A DNA stretch of 64,000 bases from an uncultured Alphaproteobacteria bacterium (GCA_963759985.1 CAVXBI010000002.1:105111-169110), one strand, 5' to 3'. Shown: positions 26,180-34,878, numbered from the stretch's first letter. Notes: generated from the sequence alone by a model not told the origin. Made by a program: numbers and translations.

Positions 26180-26800
26180 TCATGCGAGCTTGTTTTCGAC
26201 GGCGATGCGCACGAGATCGAGGGGCGTACGCGCGCCGAGTTTGCGCTTCAAGATCGCGCAGCTGTTAGCGACAGTCTTGTAGGACACGTTGATCACGCCT
26301 GCGATCTCTCCCATGCTTTTGCCGCTGCGCAGGAGCCGCAGGATCTCGAGCTCGCGCGGATTTAGGCCGCTTAAGAAACCGCCGCGCCGACCGGGGTCGA
26401 GAAAGGCGAGCTTTTGCGCCATCTCCGGCAAGAGGAACGTCTGACCTGCCGCAACGGCCCGGATTGCGCCAACGAACCGAGCCGGGTCTTCGCATTTTCC
26501 GATATAACCCTTCGCGCCGTTTTCGATCGCGCGCGCAGCGAAGATCGGGTCGTCGTTCATCGAGAAGACAATGATGCGCGCCTGCGGATCATATTGCAGA
26601 ATTCGCCGCGTCAGTGAAAAGCCCGACACGCCAGGAAGATTGATATCGATCACCACGACGTCGGGGCGGGTGGCCACATAGTGCTCATAAGCGTCCTCGG
26701 CATCGAGCGCATCATGCACCTCGATGTCACCATAGGGTGAGAGCATGGCCCGGCACCCCGAAATGATGACGGGATGATCGTCGATGACGAGAACTTGCAT
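26180..26800 (-). CDS. NarL/LuxR response regulator, MxcE/MoxX-like
   Basis: VIDDH, DINLPG, SMNDDP, GAKGYIGK, C-terminal LuxR HTH; divergent from HisKA_3 kinase. Confidence 0.88.
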   Translation of the reverse strand: MQVLVIDDHPVIISGCRAMLSPYGDIEVHDALDAEDAYEHYVATRPDVVVIDINLPGVSGFSLTRRILQYDPQARIIVFSMNDDPIFAARAIENGAKGYIGKCEDPARFVGAIRAVAAGQTFLLPEMAQKLAFLDPGRRGGFLSGLNPRELEILRLLRSGKSMGEIAGVINVSYKTVANSCAILKRKLGARTPLDLVRIAVENKLA

Positions 26801-27032
26801 GTCTCTTTGCTCGAGCGGTACGAAGCCTAGTTCCATTCTCTCGGCGTCGCCGGCTCTGTCAATAAGTCTTTGCAATCAAGGAGGTTTATTCGCTTGACGC
26901 GCCGGCCCATGATGACTTGATTGAGACATGTTCCCGGCGACTTTTGGATTTGTTCCCAAACGGGCCTGACTTTGCCGCGGCGCGGGGTGGAAGACAGGCG
27001 GCAAGCTCATTAAAGTCACGCCATCGGAGGCG

Positions 27033-28418
27033 TTGATGATGCGATCTCTTTCCTTGCGGGCGCGCTTGAATTTTTTGCTCGGCGCGCTGCTCTTTCTTTC
27101 CCTCCTGGCCAACATCGCTTTCATCGCTTGGAACGCCGGTCCCCGCGTGCGCTCGGAAAGTGAGTCCGATGCGCGTCTGTCGCGCGAACTCATCGAGACG
27201 GCGCTAGCGAGCTTGCAGGAAACGCCGGACCCCGGCCCACCCTTGCGGCGGTTGCTCGTGGATCTGCAGAACTTGCGCCACGTGCGGATCTTCGTGGCGG
27301 CGAACGAAGCCGAAGCACTATCCATGCCGATTGTGACCTACCTCAATCCGAATGGTCCGCCGCCTTGGTTCGTGCGGCTTTTCGAACCGCGACCGAGCTT
27401 GACGATCGTTCCGGCCACCATCCAGGGCCGGAATTTCGGCGACGTGGTCATCGCCGCCGATCCGACCAACGAGGTGGCTGAAATATGGGCCGAGGTCTGC
27501 TCGATCGTGCTCACGGCCTTCATCTTCGCCGTTTGCATATTGGTGGTCATCCTCATTCTTGTTGGCCGGGCGCTTAAACCGCTGACGGATGTCGGCCATG
27601 CGATCACGCGGCTCGCGAGCGGCGACACCAGCGTAAGCCTGGTGCCGCGCGGGCCGCCGGAGTTCATCGATATTTCCGAAAAGCTCAACGGGCTTGCTGT
27701 CAATCTCGCCACGGTCAACGCGGAGAACACCCGCCTCGTCCAGCAGATCATGAAGGTGCAAGAGGAGGAGCGTGCCCAAATCTCCCGCGATCTGCATGAC
27801 GAAATGGGCCCGCATCTGTTCTGCATCCGCGCCAACGTGAGCGCGCTTTGCGAGAAGATGCCGGATCCGGGCCAGATCAGCCAAACTGTAGTTGCGATCG
27901 GTGAACAGGCCGAGGCAATCCAGACGCTGCTCAGGCGCTTGCTGCAACGCCTGCGGCCCGCCGGGCTCGGCGAGCTCGGGCTCGCCGAAGCTCTGCGCGC
28001 TCTGGTCGGGTCCTGGCGCGCCGCTCATCCTGAAATGCAGATTTCGCTTAGCACGTCGGATGATTTTACTTCGGTCGACGAGAATATCGGCTTGGCGATC
28101 TACCGCGTCATTCAGGAAAGTCTCACCAACGTCTTCCGGCATGCCGGCGCAACCAGCGCCAACGTCAGCGTGGATTACGTAACGATGCGCGATCCTGCGC
28201 TGGCGAATGGAGTGGCGGTTGAAGCGCTGCGGGCGCGGGTCGAGGATAATGGAGTAGGCATGCCGGAGAAGTTCGAAAAAGGCCTGGGATTGACCGGCAT
28301 GAGCGAAAGGGTACGGGCATGCGGCGGTCGCCTCAGCATCGTGCCGCGTGCCGGCAAGGGAACGCTCATCGAAGCCGTTCTACCGCTGAGCCGCGAGGCC
28401 GCTCTTCAATCGGCGTAA
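27033..28418 (+). CDS. HAMP-HisKA_3 sensor kinase, MxcQ/MoxY-like methanol-utilisation regulator
   Basis: SLRARLN..TM..AGPRV, ERAQISRDLHDEMG, QESLTNVFRHA, DNGVG, GLGLTGMSERV. Confidence 0.85.
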   Translation: MMMRSLSLRARLNFLLGALLFLSLLANIAFIAWNAGPRVRSESESDARLSRELIETALASLQETPDPGPPLRRLLVDLQNLRHVRIFVAANEAEALSMPIVTYLNPNGPPPWFVRLFEPRPSLTIVPATIQGRNFGDVVIAADPTNEVAEIWAEVCSIVLTAFIFAVCILVVILILVGRALKPLTDVGHAITRLASGDTSVSLVPRGPPEFIDISEKLNGLAVNLATVNAENTRLVQQIMKVQEEERAQISRDLHDEMGPHLFCIRANVSALCEKMPDPGQISQTVVAIGEQAEAIQTLLRRLLQRLRPAGLGELGLAEALRALVGSWRAAHPEMQISLSTSDDFTSVDENIGLAIYRVIQESLTNVFRHAGATSANVSVDYVTMRDPALANGVAVEALRARVEDNGVGMPEKFEKGLGLTGMSERVRACGGRLSIVPRAGKGTLIEAVLPLSREAALQSA

Positions 28419-28650
28419 AGCTGCACTATCGAGATCAGGGCGCGTGCCAAAGCGGTACCGGTCGCGTATCGTTTGCCCGAAAGGGCCAGGGAGCTTGTCC
28501 CGAGCAGCCGATCGAAAAATCACGCACACGAATGAGCGCAATTCCCGATTTCACTGACCGAATTTGAATTTCTGCCTTCTGCGACGGCGAATTATGCTGA
28601 GCCTCGTTCAGTGGCCTCCCGGCGATGTCTTGCCTGCCGGAGCGAGGGAG

Positions 28651-28965
28651 ATGAGCTTGGCCTCTTTTATCGAAAGAACCTGGGTCACGCTCGAATTCGG
28701 CAATCACGAATATGATCATATCAACGGTTATGATCATGTGGTGAACATCGCAACCGAGGTGGTCCTAGGTTCGGCCGAGCCAGGTTATGATCCTGAAAAA
28801 TTCAAGGCCCTTGTGGAGGAAATCAAACCTTACCTGCGGCGCTATGACAAGGTCAACGTGGTCAGCAAGAGAACCGGTCAGACGGCGAACGAGCGGGTTC
28901 GACAGGCAAACGCCGCCGAGCACCACGTCGAACGTTTGGCATCCAAAGCGAAACAATTTGTGTAG
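28651..28965 (+). CDS. Hypothetical 104-aa protein
   Basis: GAGGGAG SD before ATG 28651, open frame, downstream hairpin; no recognised family. Confidence 0.65.
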   Translation: MSLASFIERTWVTLEFGNHEYDHINGYDHVVNIATEVVLGSAEPGYDPEKFKALVEEIKPYLRRYDKVNVVSKRTGQTANERVRQANAAEHHVERLASKAKQFV

Positions 28966-28970
28966 CGAAA

Positions 28971-28992
28971 GCCTACCTGCGCTCGGGTAGGC
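28971..28992. terminator. Hairpin between convergent genes (possible bidirectional terminator)
   Basis: gcctacc...ggtaggc stem. Confidence 0.45.
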
Positions 28993-29022
28993 CTTCGGGA
29001 CGCCGTGAAGACGGAGCGGTGC

Positions 29023-29427
29023 TTATTTCAAAAGCCGCTCGAGAGCACGTCCGGCTTTGGTTCTCAGCCCCGCGGCGTTAAGAGTGCCATCGCTATTCTT
29101 GTCGGCGGCGCGAAACAATTCTTCGACCATCGCGAGATATTCGTCTTTCGACAGCGTGGTGTCGTGGTCAGGGTTGGCGGCTTTGAACTGCTCCTTGCTC
29201 ATGTGGCCGGCCACTTCTTTCAAGTCGAGGGTCGAATCCTTGTCTTCATCGAGCCTGTCGAATGCGGCACTGGCTGCCGCCTTCACTTCGGCGAGGCTCA
29301 GCGTGCCGTCTTGGTCGGTATCCGCAGAGGTGAGTGCGGAGGCCGCCGCCGCGCTCTGCGGTAAGGCCAATGTGCCGCATGCGAGCGCCAGAAGTGATGT
29401 TGCGATTAGGAGCCGCCAGCGTTTCAC
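29023..29427 (-). CDS. lanM: Lanmodulin (LanM)-like periplasmic four-EF-hand protein
   Basis: Signal peptide; four 12-residue EF loops separated by 12/13/12-aa linkers; C-terminus KAGRALERLLK resembles LanM; SD before GTG 29427. Confidence 0.85.
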   Translation of the reverse strand: MKRWRLLIATSLLALACGTLALPQSAAAASALTSADTDQDGTLSLAEVKAAASAAFDRLDEDKDSTLDLKEVAGHMSKEQFKAANPDHDTTLSKDEYLAMVEELFRAADKNSDGTLNAAGLRTKAGRALERLLK

Positions 29428-29566
29428 GATCCCTCTCCCTCTTGCCGCCGACAATGTGAGAGGCGTTGCTTTGATCGGCCGACTTAGGAGGCATAGGAGG
29501 TTGGAAATGGGCCAGCAATGACAATCATGTCCGAACGGGGCTGCCGTTTCTTCCTGCGCCACTCAC

Positions 29567-31235: not shown

Positions 31236-31268
31236 GGCGGGCGGCTCCTAATATAAGAGAGTAGCGAT

Positions 31269-32754
31269 TTGACCGATTTGACCGAACTCACCCTTGCCGC
31301 GGCGCGCGATGCCCTGGTGAAGCGGCAAGTCTCCGCCGTCGAGCTCGCAAACGCCCATATCGCGGCAATTGAGGCTGCGCGGGTCCTTAATTGCTTCATC
31401 ACCGAGACGCCGGAGGCAGCGCTTGCCGCAGCGGCCGCGGCGGATGCGCGGCTCAAACGCGGCGAGGCCCGCCCGCTCGAAGGCATCCCGCTCGGCATCA
31501 AGGACCTCTATTGCACCAAGGGCGTGCACGACGACGGCTGCGAGCCACATTCTCGAGAATTTCGTGCCGACTTATGAATCGACTGTCACCGCCAATCTCT
31601 GGCGCGACGGCGCCGTGATGCTCGGCAAGCTCAATCTCGATGAATTCGCAATGGGCTCGTCGAACGAGACCTCGCATTTCGGGCCGGTGATCTCGCCCTG
31701 GCGGCGGCCGGGTTCGAACGTCAAGCTCGTTCCCGGCGGCTCGTCCGGCGGTTCGGCGGCGGCGGTCGCGGCAAGGCTTTGCTTCGGCGCGACGGCGACC
31801 GACACCGGCGGCTCGATCCGCCAGCCTGCCGCCTTCACCGGCACGGTCGGGATCAAGCCGACCTATGGACGCTGTTCGCGCTGGGGCATCGTAGCCTTTG
31901 CCTCTTCGCTCGATCAGGCGGGTCCGATCGCGCGCAATGTGCGCGACGCCGCGATCCTGCTTGCGCTCGATGGCCGGGCATGATCCGAAAGATACGACCT
32001 GCGTCGACCGGCCGGTGCCGGACTACGAGGCGGCGGTCGGCACCTCCATCAAAGGCAAGGTGATCGGCATTCCGAAGGAATATCGGCTCGACGGCATGCC
32101 AGCCGAGATCGAGAAGCTGTGGGGCGAAGGCGTCGCCTGGCTGAGGTCGGCAGGCGCCAAGATCGTCGAGATTTCTTTGCCGCACACGCGCTATGCGCTT
32201 GCCTGCTTATTATATCGTGGCGCCGGCCGAAGCCTCGTCCAATCTCGCCCGCTATGACGGCGTGCGCTATGGGCTGCGCGTTCCCGGCAAGGACGTCATC
32301 GATCTCTACGAGAAGACCCGCGCGGCAGGTTTCGGCAAGGAAGTTCGCCGCCGCATCATGATCGGAACTTACGTGCTCTCGGCCGGCTATTACGATGCCT
32401 ATTACGTGCGCGCGCAGAAAATCAGAACCCTGATCAAGCGCGATTTCGAGACGGCCTTTGGCGCGGGAGTCGATGCGATCCTGACGCCGGCGACGCCGTC
32501 GGCAGCCTTCGGCATTGGGCGAAAAGGGCACGGCCGATCCGGTCGAGATGTATTTGAACGACGTATTCACGGTGACGGTGAACATGGCCGGCTTGCCGGG
32601 GATTGCCGTGCCGGCCGGAACTTCGTCCGAGGGCCTGCCGCTCGCGTTACAACTGATCGGCCGCGCCTTCGACGAAGAAACATTGTTCGCGATCGCCGCG
32701 GCCATCGAGCAGGCAGCGCCGAAGATCGCATTACCCAAGAAATGGTGGGATTAA
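31269..32754 (+). CDS. gatA: Asp/Glu-tRNA amidotransferase subunit A, four apparent +1 frameshifts (~31528, ~31961, ~32200, ~32518)
   Basis: [50 protein letters not shown] and YLNDVFTV across five ORF pieces. Confidence 0.93.
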
Positions 32755-32771
32755 AGTGCCGGAGAGGCCGC

Positions 32772-32817
32772 TTGACGTTCCTCTGTCACAATGTTAATTG
32801 CATTAACATTGTGACAG
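32772..32817 (+). promoter_or_regulatory. sigma70-like promoter overlapped by perfect 16-bp inverted repeat (operator)
   Basis: TTGACG at 32772; ctgtcacaatgttaat-tgc-attaacattgtgacag at 32783-32817; SD follows immediately. Confidence 0.7.
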
Positions 32818-32829
32818 GGAGGCGCGAAG

Positions 32830-33315
32830 ATGGCTGAGGTCGTCAAAGGCCGGCACACGGCGATGCGTTCGCGCTCCTTCGTCGTCTTTGTCATCGGCAT
32901 GCGGATCAATTCCTGGCACAAGGTCGCCCACTGGCTGTCGGTGGCAGCAGCGATGCCCCGGATGTTGCAGGAGCTCGCCAGACAGCCGGAGCTTGGCTAC
33001 CTCGGTGGAAAGGTCTGGTTCGGACGAACGATCGTGGCGGTTCAGTACTGGCGCGACGTCGAGTCGCTCAATGCATACGCCCGCGCCCGCGAGCATGAAC
33101 ATCTTCCGGCCTGGCGGGAGTTCAATCGTGCAATCGGTGGCTCCGGTGACGTTGGTATCTTCCATGAGACCTATCGCGTCGAACCGGGCGCTTACGAGTG
33201 CGTCTATGTGAACATGCCGCGTATCTTGTTCGGCGCGATCGCAGAGCGGATGCCGGCGACGGGTCGGCTGGAAGACGCAGCGGGACGCATGGCAGCGGGT
33301 CGGCCTGCAACTTGA
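32830..33315 (+). CDS. DUF4188 family protein (dehydratase/monooxygenase-like)
   Basis: [39 protein letters not shown]. Confidence 0.85.
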
Positions 33316-33388
33316 ACGCCGGACTTGTCGCATCGCACGGTGCGACCTAGAACGGCGGACAATTCTCGGCGCCACCGCAGAGGCCGCA

Positions 33389-34878
33389 ATGAACACACAT
33401 ACAAATCCGTCCAAGCTCATCAAGGGCGCGACCGGCGACTGGGAGGTCGTGATCGGCATGGAGGTCCATGCCCAGGTCATCTCCAAAGCCAAGCTCTTCT
33501 CTGGCGCCTCGGCCGAATTCGGCGGCGAGCCTAACACGCCATGTCTCGCTGGTCGATGCCGCCATGCCCGGCATGTTGCCGGTCATCAATGCCGAATGCG
33601 TCGCGCAGGCGGTGCGCAGCGGGCTCGGCCTCAAGGCCAAGATCAACCTGCGCTCCCACTTCGACCGCAAGAATTATTTCTATCCGGATCTGCCGCAGGG
33701 CTATCAGATCTCCCAGTACAAGAGTCCGATCGTCGGCGAGGGCGTCGTCATCGTCGACGTATCGCCCGAACGAACGGATCGAGGTCGGCATCGAGCGCCT
33801 TCACCTTGAGCAGGATGCCGGCAAGTCGCTGCATGACCAGTCGGCGACGGAATCCTTCGTCGACCTCAACCGCGCCGGCGTCGCTCTGATGGAGATCGTC
33901 TCAAAGCCGGACATGCGCTCGGCCGAAGAGGCCAAGGCCTATGTCGGCAAGCTCAGGACTATCCTGCGCTATCTCGGCACCTGCGACGGCAATATGGAGC
34001 AGGGCTCGCTGCGCGCCGACGTCAATGTCTCCGTGCGCCGCCCGGGCGAGCCCTGGGCACGCGCTGCGAGATCAAGAACGTCAATTCGATCCGCTTCATC
34101 GGCCAGGCGATCGAGTCCGAAGCGCGCCGCCAGATCGGCGTTCTCGAGGACGGCGGCACGATCGACCAGGAGACGCGGCTCTTCGATCCGGGCCGCGGCG
34201 AGACGCGCTCGATGCGCTCCAAGGAGGAGGCGCACGACTATCGCTATTTCCCCGATCCGGATCTTCTGCCGCTCGAACTCGACCCGGCTTATGTCGACGC
34301 GCTCGCGGCGGCGCTGCCCGGAATTGCCCGACGCCAAGAAGGCCCGTTTCATTACGCACTACGGGCTCGCGGCCTATGATGCCGGCATCCTCGTCGCCGA
34401 TAAGGAGACCGCCGATTATTTCGAAGCTGTCGTCGCCCACGGCGGCAAAAGCCGCGATCCCAAGGTCGTCGCCAATTGGATCATGGGCGACGTTGCGGCC
34501 TATGCCAACTCCGTCGGCCTTTCGGTGCCGCAGACCCATCTGCAGCCGGCGCAGATCGCGGATCTTGTCGATCTCATCGCGGCGGGCACGATCTCGGGAA
34601 AAATCGCCAAGGACCTGCTTCTGATCCTTATCGCGGAAGAGAAGGACGGCGAACCGAGCGCTATCGTCGAGGCGAGGGGAATGAAACAGGTGACGGATCT
34701 CGGCGCCATCGAGGCTGCGGTCGACGCCATCATTGCCGCCAATCCGGACAAGGTCGCGCAAGCGCGAGCCAAGCCTTCGATGCTTGGATGGTTCGTCGGA
34801 CAAGTGATGAAAGAGACAGGCGGCAAGGCCAATCCGCAGGCCGTCAACGATCTCCTGAAGACCAAACTCGGCATCTGA
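33389..34878 (+). CDS. gatB: Asp/Glu-tRNA amidotransferase subunit B, four apparent frameshifts (~33540, ~33770, ~34055, ~34319)
   Basis: [51 protein letters not shown]. Confidence 0.94.

What the first reader, a model, noticed from the sequence alone, without database searches (positions are those of the whole stretch)
29023..29427. Divergent lanmodulin homolog with remodelled EF loops
The loops are DTDQDGTLSLAE, DEDKDSTLDLKE, NPDHDTTLSKDE and DKNSDGTLNAAG, with 12/13/12-aa linkers. This is the short-linker architecture diagnostic of M. extorquens LanM. Only EF3 keeps Pro at position 2, which is linked to Ln/Ca selectivity in LanM. Position 9 is Ser in EF1 and EF3, position 6 is Ser/Thr in EF2/EF3, and EF4 lacks Glu12 (GGG, one base from GAG). 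It may have altered rare-earth versus Ca selectivity or stoichiometry, which is relevant to REE separation.
Basis: partly seen in the sequence, partly recalled or inferred. Interest (0 to 1): 0.8.

Follow-up and report, generated by a model that had tools for sequence, protein, structure and literature searches.

The report
Soil lanmodulin with dead fourth site
This gene encodes an ordinary member of the well-surveyed lanmodulin family of small periplasmic rare-earth-binding proteins; its one unusual trait is a real, strain-specific glutamate-to-glycine change that probably disables the fourth metal site, which is already the weakest one.

Summary
Window 29023-29427 (minus strand) encodes a 134-aa protein with a signal peptide, the four 12-residue loops as quoted, and 12/13/12-residue linkers.

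It is a lanmodulin (LanM):
- It passes NCBI's LanM equivalog model, narrowly (138.4 bits against a cutoff of 135).
- It matches Mex-LanM over its full length (E 2e-25, 52% identity).
- Its AlphaFold model superposes on Nd-bound Mex-LanM (TM 0.94, rmsd 0.9 Å).
- It meets all published family criteria.

"Divergent" overstates the case. It is closer to Mex-LanM than Hans-LanM is. Most of the "remodelled" positions are common among 183 relatives or occur in characterised LanMs. Proline only in EF3 is the joint-commonest pattern, and Ser/Thr at EF3 position 9 is the majority state.

The exception is Gly12 in EF4. The GGG codon appears in short-read contigs from two soil runs. All related strains and 174 of 183 relatives have Glu there. 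EF4 is the known weak site, so I predict a three-site LanM.

Two clade members (75% identical) sit directly upstream of a xoxF-type dehydrogenase (Asp-Tyr-Asp (DYD) motif) plus xoxJ. The window itself holds no lanthanide genes.

The family has 696 known orthologs, 621 of them assayed. This is a new member of a known kind, of modest interest.

The parts
29023..29427 (-). lanM coding sequence (134 codons plus TAA stop at 29023-29025; GTG start at 29425-29427)
   Evidence: Translation. NCBIfam NF053806 lanmodulin LanM scores 138.4 bits against a cutoff of 135. PDB 8fns/6mi5 E 2e-25. dN/dS is 0.22 against the nearest relative.
29431..29441 (-). Shine-Dalgarno sequence (GAGGGAGAGGG), about 7 nt upstream of the GTG start
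   Evidence: Read directly from the sequence.
29344..29427 (-). Predicted Sec signal peptide, residues 1-28 (KRWR, then a hydrophobic core, then AAA|AS). The Cys17 context LALAC is lipobox-like, but only this protein and its nearest relative have it.
   Evidence: Hydropathy profile. It aligns with the AFA|/ASA| cleavage sites of relatives. pLDDT is below 50 for residues 1-25. No signal-peptide predictor was available.
29287..29322 (-). EF1 loop DTDQDGTLSLAE (residues 36-47). Ligand positions D1, D3, D5, T7 and E12 are intact. Position 9 is Ser.
29215..29250 (-). EF2 loop DEDKDSTLDLKE (residues 60-71). All acidic ligand positions are intact, including D9. Position 6 is Ser.
   Evidence: Ser/Thr at position 6 is shared by clade members P0001-P0008.
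29140..29175 (-). EF3 loop NPDHDTTLSKDE (residues 85-96). It holds the only Pro at position 2. N1, T6 and S9 are present, and E12 is invariant in the family.
   Evidence: Positions 1-8 match Hans-LanM EF2 (NPDGDTTL) at 7 of 8 residues.
29068..29103 (-). EF4 loop DKNSDGTLNAAG (residues 109-120). It is degenerate: N3, N9 and G12 leave only two carboxylates.
   Evidence: Hans-LanM EF4 is DANKDGKLTAAE.
29068..29070 (-). GGG codon for Gly120 (EF4 position 12). This is a derived, strain-specific replacement of Glu.
   Evidence: Identical in contigs of runs X1 and X2. In runs X5, X8, X9 and X10, position 29069 reads T instead of C, giving GAR = Glu. P0001 has GAA. Glu occupies this position in 174 of 183 relatives.
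28966..28997 (-). 12-bp hairpin downstream of the lanM stop, in the gap between convergent genes. It is a possible terminator, although the U tract is weak.
   Evidence: strand folding gives dG -25.2 kcal/mol and z -3.2. The consensus terminator scan did not call it.

Best explanation
The gene encodes a genuine lanmodulin (LanM) ortholog from an uncultured soil bacterium.

Proposed mechanism:
1. The precursor is exported by its Sec signal peptide. The roughly 106-residue acidic mature protein sits in the periplasm (inferred).
2. As in Mex-LanM, it should be largely disordered when metal-free. It should fold into the LanM three-helix bundle when trivalent lanthanides bind the EF loops on its periphery. 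The fold is predicted here; metal dependence is inferred from the family.
3. EF1, EF2 and EF3 keep the ligand set D/N1, D3, D5, T7 backbone carbonyl and bidentate E12. These should be the three working lanthanide sites.
4. EF4 was already a D-x-N-type weak site like that of Hans-LanM. In this strain it has also lost the bidentate Glu12 (E120G), so it is probably non-binding. The expected stoichiometry is three.
5. The physiological role is that proposed for LanM: periplasmic buffering and shuttling of lanthanides for XoxF-type PQQ dehydrogenases and lanthanide homeostasis. This is inferred from the family and from relatives that sit next to xoxF-xoxJ.
6. Hans-type Arg-mediated dimerisation is not expected.
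For: Shown:
- Loops and 12/13/12 linkers.
- NCBIfam LanM equivalog score above its cutoff.
- Gap-free, full-length match to Mex-LanM at 52% identity, E 2e-25, and to Hans-LanM and Ancylobacter lacus LanM at E about 2e-16.
- AF2 model with pLDDT above 90 over the mature domain. Foldseek's top four hits are all LanM structures; 8fns gives TM 0.94, rmsd 0.9 Å. The next hit is calmodulin at E 1e-2.
- All three published LanM criteria are met.
- dN/dS of 0.22 against an 88%-identical relative.
- 12/13/12 spacing in 161 of 184 relatives. E12 of EF3 is invariant in 183 of 183.
- GGG confirmed in two runs, and Glu in all related strains.
- Clade members P0007 and P0005 (75% identical over the mature region) lie directly upstream of a TIGR03075 PQQ methanol/ethanol dehydrogenase. 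That enzyme carries WDYDG, the extra Asp specific to lanthanide enzymes (PMC11845868), and is followed by a MoxJ/XoxJ-like protein.
- Other relatives sit next to pqqA or to a PQQ-dependent GSDH-type enzyme.
- EF4 is micromolar in Mex-LanM and not La-occupied in Hans-LanM.
- Of the Hans dimer network D85/E91/D93/R100, the equivalents here are D87/S93/D95/E102.
Against: - No metal binding was measured.
- The window's own 64 kb holds no xoxF, PQQ-synthesis, TonB-receptor or lut genes. The rest of the genome is unseen.
- The NCBIfam score is only 3.4 bits above the cutoff.
- Ser at position 9 in EF1 and EF3 removes a carboxylate that matters in both Mex-LanM (D9 hydrogen-bonds to coordinated waters) and Hans-LanM (E9 is a ligand). 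It resembles ordinary Ca-binding EF hands.
- Only one Pro remains at position 2.
- The 2026 survey found that some catalogued 'LanMs' look like Ca-type EF proteins with flat rare-earth selectivity.
- No RNA run holds the gene.
Confidence: 0.8

Rival explanations
1. It is an ordinary periplasmic Ca(II)-binding EF-hand protein that shares ancestry and architecture with LanM but lacks strong lanthanide-over-calcium selectivity.
For: - Only one of four loops keeps Pro at position 2.
- Ser at position 9 of EF1 and EF3 is typical of Ca-binding EF hands.
- It is not next to lanthanide genes in the window.
- The 2026 survey noted catalogued LanMs, without Pro and with Asn3, that look Ca-type and show flat selectivity.
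- The NCBIfam score is barely above its cutoff.
Against: - EF1-3 keep D/N1, D3, D5, T7 and E12. They lack the Asn3 and weak-Thr7 features of the Ca-like clusters.
- Hans-LanM has Pro in only one loop and is still lanthanide-selective.
- It is 52% identical to Mex-LanM over the whole length.
- 75%-identical clade members are adjacent to xoxF (DYD motif) and xoxJ.
Confidence: 0.12
2. The GGG codon is a sequencing or assembly error, and the protein is really a standard LanM with Glu12 in EF4.
For: - The window's consensus is demonstrably imperfect. Six single-base insertions relative to short-read contigs break gatA and gatB.
- Depth in the supporting runs is only about 3-4x.
- Logan contigs drop minority variants.
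Against: - Independently assembled contigs from two different samples reproduce GGG, with zero differences over about 410 bases each.
- Contigs of the same runs differ from the window at the gatA/gatB indels, so they are not copies of the window assembly.
Confidence: 0.04
3. The gene is decaying. In this lineage lanM moved away from xoxF, and E120G is the first step of loss of function.
For: - The gene lies between ruvX and an unrelated two-component system, not beside xoxF as in clade members.
- A family-conserved ligand has been lost.
Against: - The ORF, start codon, SD and signal peptide are intact.
- dN/dS is 0.22.
- The ligands of EF1-3 are untouched.
- The same ruvX-lanM-HK synteny is kept in the 88%-identical relative, which still has Glu12.
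- EF4 is the most variable site across the family.
Confidence: 0.04

Closest known systems
Mex-LanM, lanmodulin of Methylorubrum extorquens AM1 (PDB 6MI5, 8FNS)
   Same: - Same length class, signal peptide, four EF loops and 12/13/12 linkers.
- 52% identity without gaps over residues 34-133.
- The predicted three-helix bundle superposes at TM 0.94, rmsd 0.9 Å.
- EF4 is the weak site in both.
   Different: - Mex-LanM has Pro at position 2 and Asp at position 9 in all four loops, and Gly at position 6.
- Here Pro is only in EF3, position 9 is Ser in EF1 and EF3, and position 6 is Ser in EF2 and Thr in EF3.
- Mex EF4 is NPDNDGTIDARE with Glu12. Here it is DKNSDGTLNAAG without Glu12.
- By my recollection, Mex lanM lies in the lut lanthanide-uptake cluster. 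Here it lies between ruvX and a NarL-type two-component system.
Hans-LanM, lanmodulin of Hansschlegelia quercus (PDB 8DQ2, 8FNR), and the Ancylobacter lacus La-bound protein (PDB 9PI2)
   Same: - Pro in a single loop.
- Asn at position 1 and Thr at position 6 in a La-binding loop. Hans EF2 is NPDGDTTLESGE; EF3 here is NPDHDTTLSKDE.
- A D-x-N-x-D-G-x-L-x-A-A-type EF4 that is not a good lanthanide site.
   Different: - Only 38-39% identity.
- Hans uses Glu9 as a bidentate ligand. Here position 9 is Ser, Asp, Ser and Asn in EF1-4.
- The Arg100/Glu91 part of the dimer network is replaced by Glu102/Ser93, so LRE-induced dimerisation is not expected.
- Hans EF4 keeps Glu12.
Uncultured soil/peat clade P0001-P0008 (metagenome-only LanM homologs)
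   Same: - 71-88% identity over the mature region.
- Shared loop signatures: DTDxDGTL in EF1, DxDKD[ST]TLD in EF2, non-Gly at position 6 of EF3, and DxNxDGTLNAA in EF4.
- P0001 shares the ruvX-lanM-HK-RR synteny.
   Different: - All eight have Glu at EF4 position 12.
- P0005 and P0007 sit upstream of xoxF-xoxJ rather than next to ruvX.
Calmodulin-type Ca(II) EF-hand proteins
   Same: 12-residue DxDxDG-type loops. It hits Pfam EF-hand_1, 5, 6 and 7.
   Different: - EF loops in calmodulin are about 25 residues apart and pair into four-helix lobes.
- Sequence E-values are 1e-3 or worse, and structural TM is about 0.3.

Membership tests
Lanmodulin (LanM), criteria of Mattocks et al. 2023 (PMC10232371) | Four EF-hand motifs in a protein of fewer than 200 residues | tested here: met
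   There are four 12-residue loops at residues 36, 60, 85 and 109 in a 134-aa precursor. Caveat: the fourth loop lacks the position-12 Glu, so it is a motif by position and homology and probably not a working site.
Lanmodulin (LanM), criteria of Mattocks et al. 2023 (PMC10232371) | Adjacent EF hands separated by 12-13 residues rather than about 25 | tested here: met
   The linkers are 12, 13 and 12 residues. The same spacing occurs in 161 of 184 relatives.
Lanmodulin (LanM), criteria of Mattocks et al. 2023 (PMC10232371) | At least one EF hand with Pro at position 2 | tested here: met
   EF3 is N-P-D-H-D-T-T-L-S-K-D-E.
Lanmodulin (LanM) | Score above the curated cutoff of NCBIfam NF053806 (equivalog 'lanmodulin LanM') | tested here: met
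   138.4 bits against a cutoff of 135, E 1.4e-40, covering model positions 7-132 of 132. The margin is only 3.4 bits.
Lanmodulin (LanM) | Three-helix-bundle fold with the metal sites on the periphery | tested here: met
   The AF2 model has pLDDT above 90 for residues 31-134. Foldseek gives 8fns TM 0.94/rmsd 0.9 Å and 8dq2 TM 0.86, while calmodulins give TM about 0.3. This is a prediction, not an experiment.
Lanmodulin (LanM) | Secreted to the periplasm (N-terminal signal peptide) | tested here: inconclusive
   The N-terminus has a positive n-region, a hydrophobic core and an AAA|AS site that aligns with the AFA|/ASA| sites of relatives. No dedicated predictor was available, and a lipobox-like LALAC is an alternative.
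Lanmodulin (LanM) | Picomolar Ln(III) affinity, about 10^8-fold selectivity over Ca(II), and lanthanide-induced disorder-to-order transition | not testable with these tools
   This needs purified protein and CD, fluorescence or ITC titrations.
Lanmodulin (LanM) | Genomic or regulatory association with lanthanide use (xoxF, lut uptake genes). This is supportive, not strictly defining. | tested here: inconclusive
   None was found in the 64-kb window. Clade members at 75% identity lie directly upstream of xoxF (DYD) and xoxJ. Other relatives lie beside pqqA or a PQQ enzyme.
Hans-cluster LanM (LRE-dependent dimer) | Conserved Arg100-EF3 hydrogen-bond network (D3, E9 and D11 of EF3 plus Arg six residues after E12) | tested here: not met
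   The equivalent residues are D87, S93, D95 and E102, so two of four match and the Arg is replaced by Glu (gap-free alignment; network described). Identity to Hans-LanM is 38%.

The most novel reading that the evidence does not exclude
The metagenome-only soil/peat clade to which this gene belongs might bind rare earths with a selectivity or affinity profile outside the eight clusters described for 621 orthologs. Its features are Ser/Thr at position 6 of EF2, non-Gly at position 6 of EF3, Ser at position 9 of EF1 and EF3, and a D-x-N EF4. The natural E120G allele would then be a ready-made three-site variant. Comparing it with its Glu-bearing sister alleles would isolate what EF4 contributes to folding cooperativity and selectivity.
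Probability: 0.12. Interest if true: 0.45.

Novelty: new member of a known kind. Interest (0 to 1): 0.27.

Why it matters
LanMs are being developed for aqueous rare-earth separation, so natural loop variants have some practical value. This one adds a sequence from an uncultured soil lineage, plus a natural Glu12-to-Gly knockout of EF4 with closely related Glu-bearing alleles available for comparison.

The family's natural diversity has already been mined systematically: 696 orthologs catalogued and 621 assayed. That survey found that loop substitutions alone do not determine selectivity. The expected gain is therefore incremental.

The lanM-xoxF-xoxJ arrangement in sister sequences modestly strengthens the physiological link between LanM and lanthanide-dependent dehydrogenases outside the well-studied methylotrophs.

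Tried and rejected
- **Genome scan with the single protein.** It found only one locus, a Steroidobacteraceae MAG at 56% identity. The source organism could not be named. An alphaproteobacterial (Hyphomicrobiales-like) origin is only my inference from gene order (cta oxidase cluster, thrC-M16, ruvX-gatCAB, IalB).
- **Ortholog sequences from the papers.** Searching the supplementary files of the 2023 and 2026 LanM papers found no sequences held. I could not place the protein in their major branches or selectivity clusters.
- **RNA runs.** None was found, so there is no expression evidence.
- **Promoter scan upstream of lanM.** It found nothing.
- **Rfam and tRNA scans of the window.** No hits.
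- **Link between the adjacent two-component system and lanM regulation.** I looked for a parallel to MxcQE in M. aquaticum. The pair is a generic NarL/UhpB type by NCBIfam. Its adjacency is conserved only in the 88%-identical relative, not in other clade members. I rejected it as evidence.
- **The longer 179-aa ORF and the antisense 119-aa ORF.** I rejected both in favour of the 134-aa reading, on homology, SD position and signal peptide.
- **Hans-type dimerisation.** I considered it and rejected it on the Arg100 network test.

Full report
**1. Checking the observation**

Window 29023-29427 on the minus strand translates without interruption to a 134-residue protein. The GTG start at 29425-29427 is preceded by AAGAGGGAGAGGGATC, a strong ribosome-binding site at the right distance. 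The mechanical ORF list extends the frame to 179 aa. The shorter reading begins with a typical signal peptide: KRWR, a hydrophobic core, then AAA|AS. That site aligns with the cleavage sites of relatives.

They start at residues 36, 60, 85 and 109, with linkers of 12, 13 and 12 residues. Every detail holds: Pro at position 2 only in EF3; Ser9 in EF1 and EF3; Ser6 in EF2 and Thr6 in EF3; and Gly at position 12 of EF4. That Gly is encoded by GGG at 29068-29070.

**2. What the protein is**

- Pfam sees only generic EF-hand families.
- NCBIfam's equivalog model NF053806, "lanmodulin LanM", matches end to end. The score is 138.4 bits against a curated cutoff of 135, E 1.4e-40.
- Against all PDB sequences, the four best hits are the four LanM entries. 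Mex-LanM 8fns/6mi5 gives E about 2e-25. Ancylobacter lacus 9pi2 and Hans-LanM 8dq2 give E about 2e-16. All align without gaps over about 100 residues. The next hits are calmodulins at E 1e-3 or worse.
- In that register, identity is 52% to Mex-LanM, 38% to Hans-LanM and 39% to A. lacus. Mex-LanM and Hans-LanM share about 35%.
- An AlphaFold2 model built on 35 homologs has pLDDT above 90 across the mature domain.
- In Foldseek against the PDB, the only hits with E below 1e-3 are LanM structures. 8fns gives TM 0.94 normalised to the target, rmsd 0.9 Å. Calmodulins fall to TM about 0.3.

Mattocks et al. 2023 define LanMs by three features: four EF hands, 12-13-residue spacing instead of about 25, and at least one Pro at position 2. 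They searched with the first two features plus a length under 200 residues. All of these are met here.

**3. How unusual the loops are**

The word-indexed search returned 49 homologs. The exhaustive phmmer search found 529 representatives (50%-identity clusters) at E ≤ 1e-10. I aligned 183 relatives that have all four loops.

| Feature | Count among relatives |
|---|---|
| 12/13/12 linker spacing | 161 of 184 (query included) |
| Pro at position 2 | EF1 30, EF2 13, EF3 118, EF4 52 |
| Pattern "Pro only in EF3" | 57 of 183, joint commonest with "no Pro at all" (57) |
| EF3 position 9 | Ser 65, Thr 62, Asp 47 |
| EF1 position 9 Ser | 27 |
| EF2 position 6 Ser | 12 |
| EF3 position 6 Thr | 5 |

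The two rarer position-6 states are shared by a small clade, P0001-P0008. Its members are 71-88% identical in the mature region and all come from metagenomes.

Several of the "remodelled" states also occur in Hans-LanM, whose EF1-3 are occupied by La in the crystal:
- Hans EF2 is NPDGDTTLESGE. It matches EF3 here at 7 of the first 8 positions, including N1, P2 and T6.
- Hans EF4 is DANKDGKLTAAE, the same D-x-N...AA type as EF4 here.

The 2026 survey of 621 orthologs also describes clusters without any Pro, and clusters with Lys or Gln at position 6. [quoted passage not shown] The description "divergent, remodelled" is therefore overstated.

**4. The one real peculiarity: Gly12 of EF4**

- Glu at EF4 position 12 is present in 174 of 183 relatives, and in all eight clade members.
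- Logan contigs of two soil-metagenome runs cover the codon and match the window with zero differences. These are X1 at 28796-29208 and X2 at 28895-29304.
- Those contigs are not copies of the window assembly. Contigs of the same runs lack single bases that the window carries in gatA and gatB.
- Related strains in three peat runs and one other run all read T instead of C at 29069. That gives GAR, which is Glu.
- The 88%-identical relative has GAA.

E120G is therefore real, derived and strain-specific. Depth is only about 3-4x, so a raw-read pile-up would still be worthwhile.

The gene as a whole is under purifying selection, with dN/dS 0.22 against the nearest relative. Losses of the position-12 acid among relatives are concentrated in EF4, whereas E12 of EF3 is invariant. 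This fits the literature. EF4 binds only with micromolar affinity in Mex-LanM, and it was modelled with Na rather than La in La-Hans-LanM. With N3, N9 and now G12, EF4 retains two carboxylates. I infer that it no longer binds lanthanides, and that the protein is a three-site LanM.

**5. Genomic context**

The 64-kb window is housekeeping chromosome. It carries the cob genes, the cta cytochrome oxidase cluster, thrC, an M16 peptidase, a GGDEF-EAL protein, UDG, a 2-hydroxyacid dehydrogenase, a NarL-type two-component pair, ruvX, an MBL hydrolase, gatCAB, CopD, cytochrome bd and PhaC. There is no xoxF, PQQ, TonB-receptor or lut gene.

The order MBL-ruvX-lanM-hypothetical-HK-RR is repeated in the 88%-identical relative, but not beyond it. 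Two clade members at 75% identity, P0007 and P0005, have lanM directly upstream of three things:
- a 608-aa PQQ methanol/ethanol-family dehydrogenase (TIGR03075, 550-564 bits against a cutoff of 480);
- within it, the motif WDYDG, which carries the extra Asp that is conserved in XoxF and absent from MxaF;
- a MoxJ/XoxJ-like binding protein downstream.

More distant relatives sit beside pqqA or behind a GSDH-type PQQ enzyme with a cytochrome c. This ties the clade to lanthanide and PQQ biology, even though this particular copy has moved.

**6. Mechanism, and which steps are shown**

Shown here:
- the sequence features;
- family membership by curated model;
- the predicted fold;
- purifying selection;
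- that the E120G allele is real;
- xoxF adjacency in sister sequences.

Inferred from the family:
- export to the periplasm;
- a lanthanide-triggered disorder-to-order transition;
- tight binding at EF1-3;
- a role as a periplasmic lanthanide buffer or shuttle, as proposed for M. extorquens and M. aquaticum LanM.

Also inferred: monomeric behaviour. The Hans dimer network D85/E91/D93/R100 corresponds here to D87/S93/D95/E102.

Open questions are whether Ser9 in EF1 and EF3 lowers affinity or changes intra-lanthanide selectivity, and which selectivity cluster the protein falls in.

**7. Rival explanations**

- **A Ca-type EF-hand protein.** This cannot be excluded without biochemistry. It is disfavoured by the intact D/N1-D3-D5-T7-E12 sets, the 52% identity to Mex-LanM and the xoxF-linked sisters.
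- **A sequencing error at GGG.** This is disfavoured by the two independent runs.
- **Gene decay.** This is disfavoured by the intact ORF and the low dN/dS.

**8. Verdict**

This is a bona fide but unremarkable new member of a family that has been catalogued (696 orthologs) and functionally screened (621 orthologs). The natural EF4 knockout, together with its Glu-bearing sister alleles, is a small, testable curiosity. Interest is about 0.27.

Noticed in passing
window 31236-34878 (gatA, gatB): gatA and gatB are each split across several reading frames. Short-read contigs of the same population lack one base at 31527, 31964, 32197, 32513, 33537 and 33768, exactly where the frames break. None of these positions is in a homopolymer. 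The window consensus most likely carries single-base insertion errors here, while the other long genes I looked at read as single uninterrupted ORFs.
   Followed up: partly
L017 1252-4555 and L018 481-3770: In two clade members (75% identical LanM), lanM is followed on the same strand by a xoxF-type PQQ dehydrogenase with the lanthanide-type WDYDG motif. A MoxJ/XoxJ-like periplasmic binding protein comes next. This is a compact lanM-xoxF-xoxJ arrangement.
   Followed up: yes
L013 544-1137; L014 8353-10423; L011 7247-11495: More distant LanM homologs sit in three other contexts. One is immediately upstream of pqqA. One is downstream of a GSDH-type PQQ dehydrogenase plus a cytochrome c. One is between a bufferin-type cluster (BufA1/MbnB/HvfC/DoxX) and a transaldolase. 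NCBIfam's transaldolase model PRK12309 also weakly matches the LanM EF region.
   Followed up: no
proteins P0051, P0097, P0160: These are giant proteins of 1241-1706 aa with signal- or lipoprotein-like N-termini. They carry 40-53 EF-hand loops in strictly alternating spacing, 21/13 or 16/20 residues. They are poly-EF-hand arrays distinct from the LanM 12/13/12 module.
   Followed up: partly
L007 9938-11435: A LanM homolog (56% identity, loops at 12/13/12-like spacing) occurs in a MAG labelled Steroidobacteraceae, outside the usual alphaproteobacterial hosts. A 360-aa ORF that looks like a YVTN-type beta-propeller follows it directly; that call is by eye and was not run against a family library.
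   Followed up: no
window 26180-28965: A divergent NarL/LuxR response regulator (minus strand) and a HisKA_3 histidine kinase (plus strand) lie next to lanM. They are followed by a small ORF without any family match, which runs convergent to lanM. The arrangement is conserved in the 88%-identical relative only. No specific family link to lanthanide regulation was found.
   Followed up: partly
window 29377-29391 (residues 13-17, LALAC): The signal peptide contains a lipobox-like L-A-L-A-C, shared only with the nearest relative P0001. Other clade members have plain AFA/ASA signal-peptidase I sites. A lipoprotein form is therefore possible but not conserved.
   Followed up: no
window 28966-28997: A 12-bp GC-rich hairpin (dG -25 kcal/mol, z -3.2) lies between the convergent stop codons of lanM and the small plus-strand ORF. 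It is a possible bidirectional terminator without a clear U tract.
   Followed up: partly
L008, L009, L010 (assembly GCA_037975565.1): The same LanM homolog (P0013) and about 20 kb of near-identical flanking genes occur on three different large contigs of one assembly. Many neighbouring genes are called at different lengths in the three copies. This suggests an error-rich or unresolved multi-strain assembly.
   Followed up: no
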